DNA from: a virus | Taxonomy: Duplodnaviria > Caudoviricetes | Direction: 5' to 3' (one strand) | DNA: 61,465 bases | IMG/VR virus record: IMGVR_UViG_3300019889_000016 | Location: 1 to 61,465 of that record | Part shown: piece by piece, positions 10,667 through 14,368 of the stretch | How positions within the stretch are numbered: the stretch's first letter is position 1 | How the letters are laid out: each line of letters starts with the position of its first letter | The notes under the pieces: model-generated | Database searches by the model: none | The model's input: only the letters and a program-made list of their open reading frames with translations | Told to the model about the DNA's origin: nothing | Translations under genes and position numbers: made by a program

Positions 10667-10708
10667 CGGGTGATCTCCCTGTGTGTCGGGGTGAGTGGTG
10701 ATAGGGAG

Positions 10709-10748
10709 ACGTTACCGCGGTACTCGGTGGAGTGCAAGCGCGGTAACG
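10709..10748 (-). promoter_or_regulatory. promoter plus operators
   Basis: CGTTACCGCGC-TTGCAC-N17-TAACGT. Confidence 0.75.
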
Positions 10749-10758
10749 GGGCGATGCT

Positions 10759-11436
10759 CTACGAGCGGCCACCGGGAGTCGAACCCGGACCGTCACCACG
10801 GGATGGTGCCGGCTCACCTTCGAGCCCTTGGCCGCGGGGGAACGGTACCGCCATGCCAGCCACCACCCGGCGCATGCCCCGATCCAGCGGCATGACGTAG
10901 CGGTGCTTCGGGGGCATCGGGACCCGCTCGGCGTGCGGGTCGACGTGCTCGCGGAGCCACGGGATCGACTGGCCGCCGATGCCGTACGTGGAGTGCAACG
11001 TCTTGGGGTGGACCATGCGGCCGTTGACCCGGTACCACTGGTGGTCGACGGCGCCGGTGTAGGTCCAGTTCCCGGCCTGGTAGATCGTGCCCAGGTGCCC
11101 CTGGCCTTCGTCGGCGAACGACACGATCAGCCGGAGCCCGGGGTTGGTGCGGCGCAGCCAGGCGATGGCCCGGGCGACGACCTGGGTCGTGGGCGACTGA
11201 TGGGTGGTCAACGCCACCCGGACCAGCTCGCACACCTGCGTGGCCGAGCAGCCGAACGCCCGCCCCAGCGCTGGGGCGGCGCCGCGCCCGAACATCACCA
11301 CCCCGATGAACTCGCCGTCTTCCCACGCGCCGGCGCGGACCAGCTTCCCGGACGGCATGCGGCGGGAGTAGTGCCACCTGGTGACGGCGTAGACCGCGGC
11401 GCGGTGCTCGGCCGGTGCCACCACCAGGTCGACCAT
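10759..11436 (-). CDS. mom: Mom-family (GNAT-fold) DNA adenine modification protein
   Basis: WHYS, FIGVVMFG, ELVRVAL, IVSFADEGQGHLGTIYQAGNWTYTG and KHRY are the conserved Mom-like motifs. ATG at 11436 is coupled to the upstream stop. Confidence 0.85.
   Translation of the reverse strand: MVDLVVAPAEHRAAVYAVTRWHYSRRMPSGKLVRAGAWEDGEFIGVVMFGRGAAPALGRAFGCSATQVCELVRVALTTHQSPTTQVVARAIAWLRRTNPGLRLIVSFADEGQGHLGTIYQAGNWTYTGAVDHQWYRVNGRMVHPKTLHSTYGIGGQSIPWLREHVDPHAERVPMPPKHRYVMPLDRGMRRVVAGMAVPFPRGQGLEGEPAPSRGDGPGSTPGGRS
10764..10835 (-). tRNA. atypical tRNA-Gly(CCC)-like element embedded in the 3' end of the mom CDS
   Basis: GCGGCCA-AG-GGCT-CGAAGGTG-AGCC-G-GCACC-ATCCCGT-GGTGA-CGGT-CCGGG-TTCGACT-CCCGG-TGGCCGC-T. 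Perfect 7-bp acceptor stem, D arm with GG, CCC anticodon, perfect T arm, U73; no encoded CCA. Confidence 0.8.
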
Positions 11437-11933
11437 CAGGGGGTGCCGGGGCCGAGCGCGGGCAGCATCGACGGCATCTCGCTGGTGGCGTACGCCCGCT
11501 CGATCTGCGGTGCCATGAAGTCGCTCACCGTGGACCCGTCGGGCAGCACGATGTTGGCCATGAACTCCTGCTCGAACGTGGCCAGGCCGATGTCGACGGC
11601 CTCCAGCTTGGCGGTGATGTTCAGCAGCAGGGCACGCCAGCGTTGGCGAGTGGCCTGTTCCCAGGCGGCCTCGGCGGCCGTCGCCGTCCTGGCGCGGCCG
11701 GTGTCGGTGACCGTGAACTCGTGGTCGTCGCGGTCGGGCATCGGGAGCACGAACCGGACGTAGCGCTCGTGGGCGCGAAACTGGATCACGGCGGTGCCGG
11801 CGGGGCCGACCATGCCCGCGCCGCCCCACCCGTACAGGTACTGGTCGGCGCCGTAGCGGGTGACGACCTTCTCGATCTGTTCGCGGGATCGGTTGGCGGG
11901 GACGTCGGTCCCGGCGGCGTAGCGGCGGGTCAC
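11436..11933 (-). CDS. conserved phage hypothetical protein
   Basis: YAAGTDVPANRSREQIE...QRWRALLL..AKLEAV..G..TFEQEF.ANIVLPDGSTV, a pattern I recognise from phage hypotheticals. Confidence 0.7.
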   Translation of the reverse strand: MTRRYAAGTDVPANRSREQIEKVVTRYGADQYLYGWGGAGMVGPAGTAVIQFRAHERYVRFVLPMPDRDDHEFTVTDTGRARTATAAEAAWEQATRQRWRALLLNITAKLEAVDIGLATFEQEFMANIVLPDGSTVSDFMAPQIERAYATSEMPSMLPALGPGTP

Positions 11934-12523
11934 TGCTCGACGCGTTGGGCCGCGGCAGGGTCAACGGCGGCCCCGCAGTTGTTGCACACCAGGTGGAACT
12001 TGCGGTCGAGGTGCGGCTGGTCGGCGCCGTCGGTCGGCGAGAAGTCCGGAGGCGCCAGCTCGGCGAGCAGGGCGTCGTAGGCCTCGGTCGTGAACCCGGG
12101 AGGCAGACCGGCGGGGGCCTGGGCCATCTCGGTCAGCTGCGCGGCCAGGTCGGGGAGCTTCCACCCGCCTGATTCGGTCAGCCGGTTGGTGGACACCATG
12201 TACGCCTGGGCCTCCTGGTCGTCGGTCGACGACCAGCCGCGCTGGACCGGTACCAGCCACACGCCGTCGCCGGTGAGGATGACCCCCTCGGGCGGGTGGG
12301 CGACGTCGCCGTGGTCGTGCCAGGCGGCGAGCTGGTCGACACGGCCGTGGCCGGCGACCAGTCGGCCGGTGCGTTCGTCGATCTCGGGTTGGGTCGTGAA
12401 CCCGAACCGGCGGATGGACTCGGCGATGCCGGCCTCGTCGTGGTCCTTGACGTTGGCCAGGTCGCGCCGGTCGAGCAGGTCGTCCAGCTCCATGTACTCG
12501 GTGCGGCGGGGCAGGTCAGTCAC
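11930..12523 (-). CDS. ParB N-terminal-like domain protein
   Basis: NVKDHD..IAESIRRFGF, LVAGHGR and STNRLTE..GW, with C-terminal QPHLD..CNNCG. Confidence 0.8.
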   Translation of the reverse strand: MTDLPRRTEYMELDDLLDRRDLANVKDHDEAGIAESIRRFGFTTQPEIDERTGRLVAGHGRVDQLAAWHDHGDVAHPPEGVILTGDGVWLVPVQRGWSSTDDQEAQAYMVSTNRLTESGGWKLPDLAAQLTEMAQAPAGLPPGFTTEAYDALLAELAPPDFSPTDGADQPHLDRKFHLVCNNCGAAVDPAAAQRVEQ

Positions 12524-12744
12524 GCGTTCCTCCACATGGTGTCGATCATGGCATCGAGCCGTTCATCGTCGGCCTGCTCGGTCCACGCGGCCACGAAGCC
12601 GTTGATGCTGGCGGAGGCCCGGCGGGCCACGGCGGGCATGTCGGCCGCTCGGGCCAGGCGCTGCCGGGTCAGCAGGCGCCCGGCGTCGCGCCGGGCCAGC
12701 AGCCGGCGGCGCCGGACGGCGGCCAAGGTGCGGGCGTCATCCAT
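12520..12744 (-). CDS. hypothetical protein
   Basis: MDDARTLAAVRRRR...; coupled. Confidence 0.45.
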   Translation of the reverse strand: MDDARTLAAVRRRRLLARRDAGRLLTRQRLARAADMPAVARRASASINGFVAAWTEQADDERLDAMIDTMWRNA

Positions 12745-14368
12745 GGTCGTGGCCTTCCCGCAGCTGGTCGAGTTCGCCCGCCATGTCCGGCGGGTCGGCG
12801 GCGGTGCGGTCGGCGACGCCGTCCATGAGCGCCACCACGGCGCCGCGGTCGGGCCGGTCGACGCCACCGAGGATGCGGCGCATCGGTTCGCAGGCGGTGA
12901 CGTTCAGCGACTCCCGGGCACGGGTGCACGCCACATACAGCAGGCGCAGCTCGCCGGGCGCGATCTCACCGGACTCCGGGAGATCGAAGTCCGGGCCGAG
13001 GCGGACGGTGGGCCACTCGCGGCCCTTGGCGCGGTGCGCGGTCGAGATGATGACGTCGGCGCCGTCCTCGCCCACGAGCCCGGTGAGGGCGTCGATGACG
13101 ATCTGGGAGCCGTAGTCGTCGAGCAGCTTGACCATGGTGCGCAGGTCGCTGCCACCGGGGTCCTGGTCGACGTAGTCCTGGACCTCGCGCCACGTCTCGA
13201 AGCACGCCAGGTCGGCGTGGGACACCCGTTCGCCGGCCTGCAGTCGGATGGCGGCCTCGGCGAACCGGACGATGTCTTCGCTGCCACCGACCAGGTGTGG
13301 GGCCATGCCGCGTTCCTGGTAGCCGAGCAGCGCCTGGACGGCGGCGCCGTTGGTGCGGCACAGCAACGCCCGCGGGGTCGGAGCACCAATGGCGGTGAAT
13401 GCGTAGACGTCGCCGGGGTAGCCGGGGCGGCCGGTCAACCGCAGCGGCGCGTGGAGGCGGGCTAGCACCTGGTTGGCGACGTGGGCGATGGCCGGCCCGA
13501 ACCGCCACGACTGGGTCAGGAACGTGCGTGGCACGGTGTCGTCGACGGTGTCCATGGCGTTGACCGCGCCGCGCCACTCGTAGATCTGCTGTTGGGTGTC
13601 GCCCACGTAGATGACCTGCTTGCCCAGCTGGTCGGTCAGCCACGCCAGCATCACGGGGGAGGCGTCCTGGGCCTCGTCGAACAGGATGTACTCGCCGGGG
13701 ATCTCGAACCCGGCGAGCTGGGCCATCTTGAGGTAGACGTCGTGGGTGAACCGCAGCCCGCCGGTGGGTGACGTCAGGTCGTCCCATGCCCGCAGCAGGG
13801 CGGGCATCAGCTCCCGGGCCAGCTGGCGGTTGTTGACGTAGGTGCGTTCCCCGTGGTCGTTGCGGGGGTCGATGCCGTCGACGTAGGGGAAGTGCCGGGT
13901 CGCGGGAACGACGTCGGCGCTGTTGCAGAACACGCTGATGGCGCGCATGATGTGCGACGCCTGCCACGCCGGCTGCAGCACCTTCCGGCGGGGCATCCCC
14001 ATCGGGGTCGGGATGTCGACGGCGACGTAGCCGAGCCGGAGCGCTTTCGCTGCCTGCCACGGGGCGATGCGGTTGTGGCGGGTGCGGTCGAGTAGGGCGC
14101 GGCCGTCGGGGTGCTGGTTCTGTAGGGCTCGCCACGCCACCGAGTGCACGGTGCGGGCCTCCACGGACATGGGCATGGCCGCGCCGGCGTCGTTGGCGAT
14201 GGCCTTGTTGAACGCCAGGTAGGTGCCGTTCCGGGCGGTGGTGCCGGCCATCATGGCCAGCGTCGTCGTCTTCCCGGTACCGGCGCCGGCCTCGATGACG
14301 AGGGGGTCGCCGGTAGCGAACAGGTCGACGGCGGCCTGCTGTTCGTCGGTCGGGGTGCGGGTGGTCAT
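12737..14368 (-). CDS. UvrD/REP-type SF1 helicase
   Basis: AGAGTGKT, DEAQD, VGD..QQIYEWRGA, LTQSWRFG, STAHRAKGREW and LLYVACTRA. Confidence 0.92.
   Translation of the reverse strand: MTTRTPTDEQQAAVDLFATGDPLVIEAGAGTGKTTTLAMMAGTTARNGTYLAFNKAIANDAGAAMPMSVEARTVHSVAWRALQNQHPDGRALLDRTRHNRIAPWQAAKALRLGYVAVDIPTPMGMPRRKVLQPAWQASHIMRAISVFCNSADVVPATRHFPYVDGIDPRNDHGERTYVNNRQLARELMPALLRAWDDLTSPTGGLRFTHDVYLKMAQLAGFEIPGEYILFDEAQDASPVMLAWLTDQLGKQVIYVGDTQQQIYEWRGAVNAMDTVDDTVPRTFLTQSWRFGPAIAHVANQVLARLHAPLRLTGRPGYPGDVYAFTAIGAPTPRALLCRTNGAAVQALLGYQERGMAPHLVGGSEDIVRFAEAAIRLQAGERVSHADLACFETWREVQDYVDQDPGGSDLRTMVKLLDDYGSQIVIDALTGLVGEDGADVIISTAHRAKGREWPTVRLGPDFDLPESGEIAPGELRLLYVACTRARESLNVTACEPMRRILGGVDRPDRGAVVALMDGVADRTAADPPDMAGELDQLREGHDHG

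What the first reader, a model, noticed from the sequence alone, without database searches (positions are those of the whole stretch)
10759..11436. Mom-family DNA-modifying gene that contains a tRNA-Gly in its 3' end: candidate enzyme plus co-substrate module
Seen in sequence: minus-strand 10835-10764 folds into a complete 72-nt cloverleaf with a perfect acceptor stem GCGGCCA/TGGCCGC, T arm CCGGG-TTCGACT-CCCGG, anticodon CCC and a 4-nt variable loop. It carries the classic bacterial GlyRS identity elements (G1-C72, C2-G71, G3-C70, C35, C36, U73). It lies entirely in the mom reading frame, starting right after the ...VPFP motif, so the last ~25 aa (RGQGLEGEPAPSRGDGPGSTPGGRS) are translated tRNA. 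Established: Mu Mom is a GNAT-fold enzyme making N6-carbamoylmethyl-adenine, a glycine-sized adduct, and GNAT-fold Fem transferases use dedicated Gly-tRNAs. I also recall recent reports that Mom uses Gly-tRNA(Gly) as donor; this should be verified. Inference: the phage supplies its own glycyl donor RNA for DNA hypermodification (anti-restriction) from the same transcript. It is the only tRNA-like element I found in the window.
Basis: partly seen in the sequence, partly recalled or inferred. Interest (0 to 1): 0.95.

Follow-up and report, generated by a model that had tools for sequence, protein, structure and literature searches.

The report
Mom gene fused to tRNA-Gly
A phage DNA-modifying enzyme gene (Mom, which elsewhere is known to take glycine from charged tRNA-Gly) ends in its own glycine-tRNA-like gene, and this pairing recurs in many phages, often with tRNAs too stripped-down to serve protein synthesis.

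Summary
Window 10764-10835 (-) matches Rfam tRNA (37.6 bits, cut-off 29). It lies inside the last 25 codons of a Mom-family ORF (PF25680, E 1.8e-49) and is the only tRNA-like element in this 61-kb viral contig. ARAGORN misses it.

The pairing recurs. A same-strand tRNA-Gly-like element sits at or near the 3' end of mom in 62 of 87 IMG/VR Mom loci and 27 of 75 genome loci. Arthrobacter phages Sonny and Wyborn carry it unannotated, and Salinibacter phage B2_17 carries it annotated. Microbacterium Appa-like phages have it on the opposite strand. Stems covary strongly.

Across 67 elements the glycyl-tRNA synthetase identity set is kept: G1-C72 and C2-G71 in 67, U73 in 66. Decoding features decay: U33 in only 28, A34 is common, and 40 of the 62 IMG/VR elements are D-arm-less.

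Best reading (about 0.65): a phage-encoded glycyl-donor tRNA for Mom. No expression or charging data exist. I found no prior report.

The parts
10759..11436 (-). Mom-family ORF, 225 aa including the 25-codon tail that reads through the tRNA-like element; stop codon at 10761-10759
   Evidence: ORF list. Pfam PF25680 Mom, E 1.8e-49, residues 4-200. PHROG 1384, E 1.3e-53. PDB 8bv8 Mu Mom, E 2.4e-13.
10837..11436 (-). Mom catalytic domain (codons 1-200), ending in the conserved P-[YF]-P motif
   Evidence: Pfam envelope. Alignment A1 with invariant P200 and near-invariant P198 and Y199. R73 aligns to Mu R111 and T84 to Mu S124, by my reading of the alignment and the numbering offset of the PDB chain.
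10764..10835 (-). tRNA-Gly(CCC)-like gene, 72 nt, discriminator U73, no encoded CCA
   Evidence: Rfam RF00005, 37.6 bits, above the gathering score. Family model R3, built without the window, 73.5 bits, E 3.8e-16, the only significant hit in the window. ARAGORN negative.
10711..10747 (-). Stable hairpin 16 nt downstream of the tRNA-like 3' end, without a U tract; possible terminator or processing signal (untested)
   Evidence: RNA fold of 10667-10763 (-): -28 kcal/mol, z -3.47, 0 of 200 shuffles as good. The consensus terminator scan found none.
11436..11933 (-). Upstream ORF of unknown function (PHROG 17260); its stop codon overlaps the mom start codon
   Evidence: ORF list. PHROG 17260, E 3.4e-57.
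11930..12535 (-). ParB-like gene upstream on the same strand; a conserved neighbour of mom in related phages
   Evidence: PHROG 620, E 1.7e-17. A ParB-like gene is next to mom in Appa, Sonny, Wyborn and phiEf11.

Best explanation
The window encodes a two-part DNA-hypermodification module. One part is a Mom-family GNAT enzyme. The other, starting one base after the last codon of its catalytic domain on the same strand, is a tRNA-Gly-like RNA gene.

Proposed mechanism:
1. The RNA is transcribed with mom (inferred).
2. It is released by RNase P and 3' processing, with CCA added by the host enzyme in this copy (inferred).
3. It is glycylated by the host glycyl-tRNA synthetase. This is inferred from a complete identity set.
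4. It serves as the glycyl donor, or extra donor supply, that Mom transfers to adenine N6 in the phage's double-stranded DNA. That chemistry is shown for Mu Mom only.

The 25-residue protein tail is a by-product of the ORF running through the RNA gene until the next stop codon.

The window's copy belongs to an old lineage of Mom-linked tRNA-Gly genes. In many relatives this lineage has lost the features needed for ribosomal decoding while keeping those needed for charging. The likely advantage is a glycyl-tRNA pool that does not compete with translation, by analogy with the staphylococcal cell-wall tRNA-Gly.
For: Shown here

(a) A real tRNA-like gene. Rfam 37.6 bits against a cut-off of 29. 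The leave-window-out family model gives 73.5 bits, against at most 65.2 bits for any tRNA in four bacterial genomes.

(b) Recurrence. CM searches found a same-strand element in 62 of 87 distinct IMG/VR Mom loci.
- 56 start 0-7 nt after the P[YF]P motif.
- 2 start 43-57 nt after it.
- 2 follow a second tandem mom paralog.
- 1 follows another ORF.
- 1 lacks the motif.

The element also occurs in 27 of 75 Mom loci in GTDB genome contigs from many phyla. It is present in Arthrobacter phages Sonny (68.8 bits) and Wyborn (65.1 bits) and in Salinibacter phage B2_17 (59.1 bits). Microbacterium Appa and Pickles13 carry tRNA-Gly(ccc) 32 nt past the mom stop on the other strand. In about 690 kb of Mom-flanking DNA searched on both strands, the only other significant hits were tRNA-Trp genes.

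(c) RNA-level selection.
- In the cloverleaf set, 97.1% of cells are paired and 15 of 21 pairs have compensatory changes; 0 of 500 shuffles reach this, and slid controls give 34-49% paired.
- RNAalifold on 28 mini forms finds 14 of 19 pairs compensatory.
- The D-loop and T-loop covary: GG with TTC in 7 rows and AG with TGC in 11 rows, out of 22.
- The ORF crosses the element in all three frames. It stops inside the element in 3 of 58 adjacent cases and before it in 2 of 58.

(d) Charging signals are kept and decoding signals are lost. Over 67 elements:
- G1-C72 and C2-G71 in 67
- G3-C70 in 64
- U73 in 66
- CCA encoded in 47
- the anticodon-position triplet is always NCC apart from about 2 mis-parsed rows
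- U33 in only 28
- ACC, which I recall is not a bacterial tRNA-Gly anticodon, in 29
- positions 32 and 38 complementary in 61

Of the 62 IMG/VR elements, 40 are better fitted by the D-arm-less model.

(e) Phylogeny. On the Mom tree the element-less state needs 3 changes. Its rows are the outgroup, one single row and one nested clade of 21 (SH-aLRT 96). This fits an old association with few losses.

From the literature
- Mu Mom uses Gly-tRNA(Gly), and its authors suggest it may recognise mainly the acceptor end (PMC13219725, sections 10 and 14).
- The Gly identity set is U73, G1-C72, C2-G71, C35 and C36 (PMC9976931, passages).
- Staphylococcal non-proteogenic tRNA-Gly have TGC or TGT in place of TTC in the T loop and bind EF-Tu and the ribosome poorly (PMC7826273, passages).
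Against: No direct data. No RNA run holds this sequence, so transcription, processing, glycylation and use by Mom are all inferred.

A phage tRNA is not needed for the chemistry:
- Mu Mom works with all three host isoacceptors (PMC13219725).
- Mu itself has no such element.
- 25 of 87 IMG/VR loci and 48 of 75 genome loci lack it. These include Firmicute, Enterobacterales and Pseudonocardiales prophages; 15 loci were checked with filters off and 8.

The window's own copy still looks able to decode: U33, a 7-nt anticodon loop, a GG/TTC elbow and anticodon CCC. GGG makes up 387 of 1426 Gly codons (27%) in 45 likely ORFs. An ordinary translational role for this particular copy is therefore not excluded.

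Detection is not unanimous. ARAGORN does not call it, and the single-sequence MFE fold is not a cloverleaf.

There is a cost to explain. RNase P cleavage at G1 would leave mom mRNA without a stop codon.

Sampling is not random. The 80 IMG/VR loci are the ones most similar to the window's Mom out of at least 573, so the frequencies describe this neighbourhood only. Near-identical contigs inflate the counts.
Confidence: 0.65

Rival explanations
1. It is an ordinary phage tRNA-Gly(CCC) that supplements translation of GGG codons or replaces host tRNAs cut by defence nucleases. Its position next to mom has no functional meaning.
For: The window's copy keeps U33, a 7-nt anticodon loop and a canonical GG/TTC elbow. 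GGG is 27% of Gly codons in 45 likely ORFs. Phage tRNAs for codon supply are common (established knowledge).
Against: Every tRNA-like element found at this position is Gly-type. The pairing persists down to about 40-50% Mom identity and across many host phyla. Most relatives have lost features needed for decoding: U33 in only 28 of 67, 29 with A34, and 40 of the 62 IMG/VR elements D-arm-less. It is the only tRNA in the contig.
Confidence: 0.12
2. It is a cis-acting tRNA-like structure at the 3' end of mom mRNA. It might be an RNase P or exonuclease-blocking processing signal that sets Mom dosage, for example by producing non-stop mRNA. Or it might be charged while still attached to the mRNA, as in plant-virus 3' tRNA-like structures. 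In either case it is not a free donor tRNA.
For: In 56 of 62 element-bearing IMG/VR loci the element starts 0-7 nt after the domain end. In 53 of 58 adjacent cases the ORF reads through it. Mom is described as tightly regulated in Mu (PMC13219725 discussion). A stable hairpin follows the element in the window.
Against: Conservation of C35, C36, U73 and an encoded CCA in 47 of 67 points to aminoacylation at a free 3' end. The elbow covariation implies a full L-shape. The Appa-like phages keep the tRNA on the opposite strand, where it cannot act on mom mRNA in cis. In L026, L075 and Salinibacter B2_17 it lies after the stop codon.
Confidence: 0.13
3. The conserved feature is the C-terminal peptide tail of Mom, and the RNA fold is incidental. 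Or the element is a decaying relic of an attP or tRNA integration site with no present function.
For: The tail is translated in most loci. tblastn extended into the tails of some relatives. Phage attachment sites often lie in tRNA genes (established knowledge).
Against: Compensatory base changes keep the stems. The ORF crosses the element in three different frames, and 5 of 58 ORFs end inside or before it. Both tRNA halves are always present. No integrase lies nearby; the neighbours are helicase and ParB genes. Identity nucleotides are invariant while the encoded peptide varies.
Confidence: 0.04

Closest known systems
Phage Mu Mom with host Gly-tRNA(Gly) (Silva et al., Nat Commun 2026, PMC13219725; PDB 8bv8)
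   Same: Same enzyme family: PF25680 at E 1.8e-49 and 8bv8 at E 2.4e-13. The residues aligned to Mu R111 and S124 are R73 and T84. The presumed chemistry is the same: glycyl transfer from tRNA-Gly to adenine N6 in dsDNA.
   Different: Mu has no linked tRNA-like gene and takes host tRNA. It regulates mom through Com (annotation). In the window the RNA gene is embedded in the 3' end of the ORF. The text of the paper that I read does not mention phage-encoded tRNAs. Its supplements could not be seen.
Staphylococcal non-proteogenic tRNA-Gly for FmhB/FemA/FemB (PMC7826273)
   Same: Both are tRNA-Gly paralogs that accompany a GNAT-fold aminoacyl-transferase working outside the ribosome. Both keep GlyRS charging signals. 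Both replace TTC by TGC or TGT in the T loop: 25 of 67 Mom-linked elements start the T loop with TGC and 3 with TGT.
   Different: The staphylococcal tRNAs are cellular, unlinked to the fem genes and full cloverleaves, and their acceptor is peptidoglycan. The elements here are viral and physically fused to the enzyme gene. They go much further in reduction, with loss of the D arm and 5-nt anticodon loops. The presumed acceptor is DNA.
Ordinary phage-encoded tRNAs
   Same: Both are tRNA genes in a phage genome. Some members are called by ARAGORN and annotated as tRNA-Gly: Appa, Pickles13 and Salinibacter B2_17.
   Different: These elements have a fixed partner gene, a fixed position, a single amino-acid identity, A8 in 64 of 67 (against U8 in 8 of 8 cellular tRNA-Gly), and frequent loss of decoding features.
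3' tRNA-like structures of plant RNA viruses and mitochondrial 'tRNA punctuation' with D-arm-less tRNAs (recalled, not tested)
   Same: In both, a tRNA-shaped RNA sits at the 3' end of, or overlaps, a coding region. Reduced tRNAs lacking the D arm also occur there.
   Different: Those are eukaryotic-virus or organelle systems, unrelated in sequence and not tied to a DNA-modifying enzyme.

Membership tests
tRNA (Rfam RF00005) | Covariance-model score at or above the curated gathering score over the full model | tested here: met
   37.6 bits against 29, model 1-71/71. It was missed with default filters on the whole window and by ARAGORN.
tRNA (Rfam RF00005) | Conserved core nucleotides U8, A14, G18, G19, U33 and T54-Psi55-C56 | tested here: inconclusive
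   G18, G19, U33 and TTC are present. Position 8 is A and position 14 is C. A8 is shared by 64 of 67 family members.
Bacterial tRNA-Gly (substrate of GlyRS) | Identity set U73, G1-C72, C2-G71, C35 and C36, plus G3-C70 and G10 (PMC9976931) | tested here: met
   All are present in the window.
Bacterial tRNA-Gly (substrate of GlyRS) | Actual glycylation by GlyRS | not testable with these tools
   This needs an in vitro charging assay.
Mom family (PF25680) | Profile match above the curated cut-off across the domain | tested here: met
   168.6 bits against 27.1, profile 2-201/202. PHROG 1384.
Mom family (PF25680) | Catalytic residues equivalent to Mu R111 and S124 | tested here: met
   In the alignment to 8bv8, R73 aligns with the Arg and T84 with the mutated Ser position. 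The numbering offset of +9 is my inference from the S124A chain. R73 is invariant in A1.
Mom family (PF25680) | Formation of N6-carbamoylmethyl-adenine in DNA | not testable with these tools
   This needs LC-MS of DNA.
Mom-linked tRNA-Gly lineage (defined here) | Position: starts within a few nt of the Mom domain end on the same strand | tested here: met
   The offset is 1 nt in the window. It is 0-7 nt in 56 of 62 element-bearing IMG/VR loci.
Mom-linked tRNA-Gly lineage (defined here) | Scores with a family model built without it, above cellular tRNA-Gly | tested here: met
   R3 gives 73.5 bits. The best cellular tRNA in 4 genomes gives 65.2 bits. The margin is modest.
Non-proteogenic (non-decoding) tRNA | Loss of ribosome and EF-Tu features | tested here: not met
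   The window's copy keeps U33, a 7-nt loop and TTC/GG. Many relatives have lost them. EF-Tu binding is not testable here.
attP or tRNA-fragment integration site | A partial (3') tRNA copy next to an integrase | tested here: not met
   The element is a full-length cloverleaf, and its neighbours are helicase, ParB and unknown ORFs.

The most novel reading that the evidence does not exclude
Phages have evolved a private aminoacyl-carrier RNA for DNA chemistry. It is a lineage of tRNA-Gly genes welded to the 3' end of mom. It is charged by the host GlyRS but withdrawn from translation. In many members it is reduced to a D-arm-less mini-tRNA with a 5-nt NNCCN loop and an encoded U73-CCA end. It exists only to hand glycine to Mom for adenine hypermodification. 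If so, it would be the first virus-encoded non-proteinogenic tRNA and the first dedicated donor RNA for a DNA modification. Cleaving it out of the transcript may also limit the dose of Mom.
Probability: 0.55. Interest if true: 0.95.

Novelty: new variant of a known kind. Interest (0 to 1): 0.9.

Why it matters
The tRNA dependence of Mom was published only in 2023-2026, and its authors describe Mom as harvesting a host resource. A conserved, co-inherited tRNA-Gly gene fused to mom in many phages would change that picture in four ways.

1. It independently corroborates the tRNA dependence from genomics alone.
2. It points to competition with translation as a real selective pressure.
3. It offers natural minimal substrates for mapping what GlyRS and Mom each recognise. 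The acceptor stem, U73-CCA and two loop cytosines are what survive.
4. It shows that standard annotation misses most of these genes. ARAGORN called 8 of the 62 IMG/VR elements, and the Sonny and Wyborn records carry no annotation for it.

Cultured, engineerable phages (Arthrobacter Sonny-like, Microbacterium Appa-like, Salinibacter B2_17) make the idea directly testable.

Tried and rejected
Negative or weak detection runs
- ARAGORN on the window found 0 genes. I treat this as a detection limit, not absence, because Infernal scores the element above the Rfam cut-off.
- Rfam at gathering threshold on the whole window found 0 hits. Rfam in E-value mode on ten loci together missed even the ARAGORN-called tRNA in L008. 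Both are filter losses.
- The single-sequence MFE fold is not a cloverleaf.
- The promoter and terminator consensus scan found nothing.

Expression
- No RNA holder was listed for the region. Five soil or permafrost DNA metagenome runs hold it.

Tools
- The search of earlier findings: the first call failed on a malformed word. The corrected call was answered 'closed', and I did not try again.

Ideas rejected
- attP relic, and a conserved peptide tail: see the rival explanations.
- Recent capture of a host tRNA-Gly. The window differs from 8 cellular tRNA-Gly genes at position 8, in the D arm and at position 37.

Elements not found
- Mu, phiEf11, and the Firmicute, Enterobacterales and Pseudonocardiales Mom loci, with filters off.

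Prior reports
- Searches found no paper linking mom to a phage-encoded tRNA.
- Supplements of PMC13219725, including its similarity-network and homolog tables, were closed and might bear on this.

Other
- The tblastn extension into the Appa 'tail' crosses the annotated stop codon and is a low-complexity artefact.
Full report
**1. What is in the window**

The window is a linear IMG/VR virus record of 61,465 bases, estimated 84% complete, with 71% G+C. On the minus strand lies a run of co-directional genes:
- a DNA helicase (12737-14368)
- a ParB-like protein (11930-12535)
- an ORF of unknown function (11436-11933)
- the ORF 10759-11436

The last ORF is a Mom-family protein. Pfam PF25680 matches at E 1.8e-49 over residues 4-200 of 225, covering profile positions 2-201 of 202. 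PHROG 1384 matches at E 1.3e-53. The solved Mu Mom structure 8bv8 matches at E 2.4e-13. In that alignment the window's R73 and T84 fall on the positions the Mu paper calls essential, R111 and S124. The numbering offset is my inference from the mutant chain.

The domain ends with the conserved P-[YF]-P motif at codon 200.

**2. The tRNA-like element**

The element runs from 10835 to 10764 on the same strand, beginning with the second base of codon 201. The sequence reads as a 72-nt cloverleaf with anticodon CCC, a 4-nt variable loop and discriminator U.

For it:
- Infernal aligns it end to end to Rfam tRNA at 37.6 bits, above the gathering score of 29, E 1.6e-6. The whole-record search gave the same result.

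Against it:
- ARAGORN finds nothing in the window.
- A whole-window Rfam run with default filters lost it.
- The single-sequence minimum-energy fold is not a cloverleaf.
- The element departs from canon at A8, C14 and a G27-A43 mismatch, and has no encoded CCA.

It is the only tRNA-like element in the record. The mom stop codon follows three bases after U73.

**3.

Silva et al. show that Mu Mom transfers glycine from Gly-tRNA(Gly) to N6 of adenine in double-stranded DNA, followed by an on-base rearrangement. I read the abstract and sections 9, 10 and 14 of Nat Commun 2026 (PMC13219725) and passages of the 2023 preprint. The paper also reports three points that bear on this finding:
- All three E. 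coli isoacceptors work, but Gly-tRNA(Ala) does not.
- The authors suggest that Mom may recognise mainly the acceptor end.
- They describe the enzyme as exploiting a host resource.

I found no mention of phage-encoded tRNAs in the text.

**4. The pairing recurs widely**

*Deposited phages.* A tblastn search of phage records found 242 with a Mom relative.
- In Microbacterium Appa-like phages an annotated tRNA-Gly(ccc) lies 32 nt beyond the mom stop codon, on the opposite strand.
- Salinibacter phage B2_17 has an annotated tRNA-Gly 33 nt after its Mom homolog on the same strand.

*IMG/VR.* A profile-based scan gave at least 573 Mom relatives, of which the best 80 were kept. Together with the first ten, and after removing three duplicates, that makes 87 distinct loci.
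- ARAGORN called a tRNA at the mom 3' end in eight of them, all Gly. The only other tRNAs were Trp or Asn genes about 1.2 kb upstream in one clade.
- I built covariance model R1 from eleven cloverleaf elements.
- I built model R2 from 28 reduced elements that I had noticed in the ORF tails.
- Together the two models find a same-strand element in 62 of the 87 loci.

The 62 break down as follows:

| Position of the element | Loci |
|---|---|
| Starts 0-7 nt after the P[YF]P motif | 56 |
| Starts 43-57 nt after it | 2 |
| Follows a second, tandem mom paralog | 2 |
| Follows an unidentified ORF | 1 |
| No motif in that locus | 1 |

Twenty-five loci have none. Six of these were rechecked with filters off.

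*Bacterial and archaeal genome contigs.* 27 of 75 Mom loci carry the element. The host labels span Proteobacteria, Planctomycetota, Acidobacteriota, Chloroflexota, Actinomycetota and others. Firmicute, Enterobacterales and Pseudonocardiales prophages lack it, and so does Mu.

*Cultured phages without annotation.* Arthrobacter phages Sonny and Wyborn carry the element unannotated, overlapping the end of the annotated mom CDS (68.8 and 65.1 bits).

*Specificity.* Apart from tRNA-Trp genes, no significant hit fell anywhere else or on the other strand in these flanks.

**5. Selection acts on the RNA, not the peptide**

- In the cloverleaf alignment 97.1% of cells are paired and 15 of 21 pairs show changes on both sides. 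This is beyond all 500 shuffles and far above the slid controls at 34-49%.
- RNAalifold, run on its own on the reduced forms, predicts a 7-bp acceptor stem, an anticodon-like hairpin and a T-like hairpin. 14 of its 19 pairs are compensatory.
- The tertiary elbow covaries. D-loop GG goes with T-loop TTC in 7 rows and AG goes with TGC in 11 rows, out of 22.
- The ORF crosses the element in all three frames. Of 58 adjacent cases it reads through in 53, stops inside in 3 and stops before in 2.

**6. What is conserved and what is not**

Over 67 elements (62 IMG/VR, the window, and four cultured phages):

| Feature | Count out of 67 |
|---|---|
| G1-C72 and C2-G71 | 67 |
| G3-C70 | 64 |
| U73 | 66 |
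| A8 | 64 |
| CCA encoded | 47 |
| U33 | 28 |
| Positions 32 and 38 complementary | 61 |
| T loop beginning TTC | 13 |

- The triplet at the anticodon position is ACC in 29, UCC in 23, CCC in 10 and GCC in 3. About five rows were mis-parsed by my heuristic.
- Complementary 32-38 gives an effective 5-nt loop.
- Of the 62 IMG/VR elements, 40 fit the D-arm-less model better.

The retained nucleotides are the published glycine identity set: U73, G1-C72, C2-G71, C35, C36 and G10 (PMC9976931, passages). The lost features serve decoding. TGC in place of TTC in the T loop is also the mark of the staphylococcal cell-wall tRNA-Gly, which bind EF-Tu and ribosomes poorly (PMC7826273, passages).

Eight cellular tRNA-Gly genes from four genomes all have U8.

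A family model built without the window (R3) scores the window at 73.5 bits, against at most 65.2 bits for any cellular tRNA in those genomes. The margin is modest. The window's copy is one of the most canonical members of the family.

**7. Evolution**

On a quick maximum-likelihood tree of 87 Mom domains, the element-less state is confined to three places: the outgroup, one single row, and one nested clade of 21 (SH-aLRT 96). This fits an old association with few losses. The tree is unrooted and many forks are unsupported, so I claim no more than clustering. L008 and L057 were left out of the tree because their mom frames contain stops.

**8. Interpretation**

I conclude with near certainty that the element is a real, selected tRNA-Gly-like gene that co-evolves with mom.

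I rate at about 0.65 that it is charged with glycine and used by Mom. That rests on three things: the enzyme's known co-substrate, the retention of charging signals alongside decay of decoding signals, and the staphylococcal precedent.

Three cautions apply:
- The window's own copy could also decode GGG, which makes up 27% of its glycine codons.
- Processing at G1 would leave mom mRNA without a stop codon. Whether that is a cost or a dosage control is open.
- No expression data exist. The only public runs that hold the region are soil and permafrost DNA metagenomes.

**9. Novelty**

Searches of the open literature found no report of a mom-linked phage tRNA. The closest known systems are Mu Mom with host tRNA and the staphylococcal Fem-dedicated tRNA-Gly.

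I classify the finding as a new variant of a known kind: a dedicated, non-ribosomal aminoacyl-donor tRNA. It differs from the known cases in being viral, fused to its enzyme gene, aimed at DNA, and in many members radically reduced.

Noticed in passing
window 10711-10747 (-): A stable hairpin (10-bp stem) lies 16 nt after the tRNA-like 3' end and before the next gene. Fold z-score is -3.47. It has no U tract.
   Followed up: partly
L048:690-1406 and L069:2570-3238: Two tandem mom paralogs. The tRNA-Gly-like element follows the second one, again right after its P-Y-P motif.
   Followed up: partly
L068:2600-3203: The mini-form element lies about 540 nt past mom, after an unidentified ORF of about 170 aa, rather than at the mom stop codon.
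   Followed up: no
L032-L038, L043 (about 750-970 in each locus): The element-less, Firmicute-like Mom clade has a tRNA-Trp or tRNA-Asn gene about 1.2 kb upstream of mom on the same strand.
   Followed up: no
L008:1025-1150 and L057 around 1808: The mom frames in these two contigs are interrupted by stop codons, although their tRNA-Gly elements score among the best. This could be assembly error or a decaying mom gene.
   Followed up: no
L094:2080-2151 (Arthrobacter phage Sonny) and L095:2101-2172 (Wyborn): The tRNA-Gly(UCC)-like element is not annotated in the deposited records and overlaps the last ~21 nt of the annotated mom CDS. L042 (IMG/VR) carries an identical element.
   Followed up: yes
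window 11930-12535 (-); L001, L094, L095, L097: A ParB-like gene upstream of mom is a conserved neighbour in Appa, Sonny, Wyborn and phiEf11. The window has one extra ORF (PHROG 17260) in between.
   Followed up: partly
mini-form elements, e.g. L004:3599-3668: In the reduced forms the base before G1 is A and can pair with U73. This gives a possible 8-bp acceptor helix directly followed by CCA.
   Followed up: no
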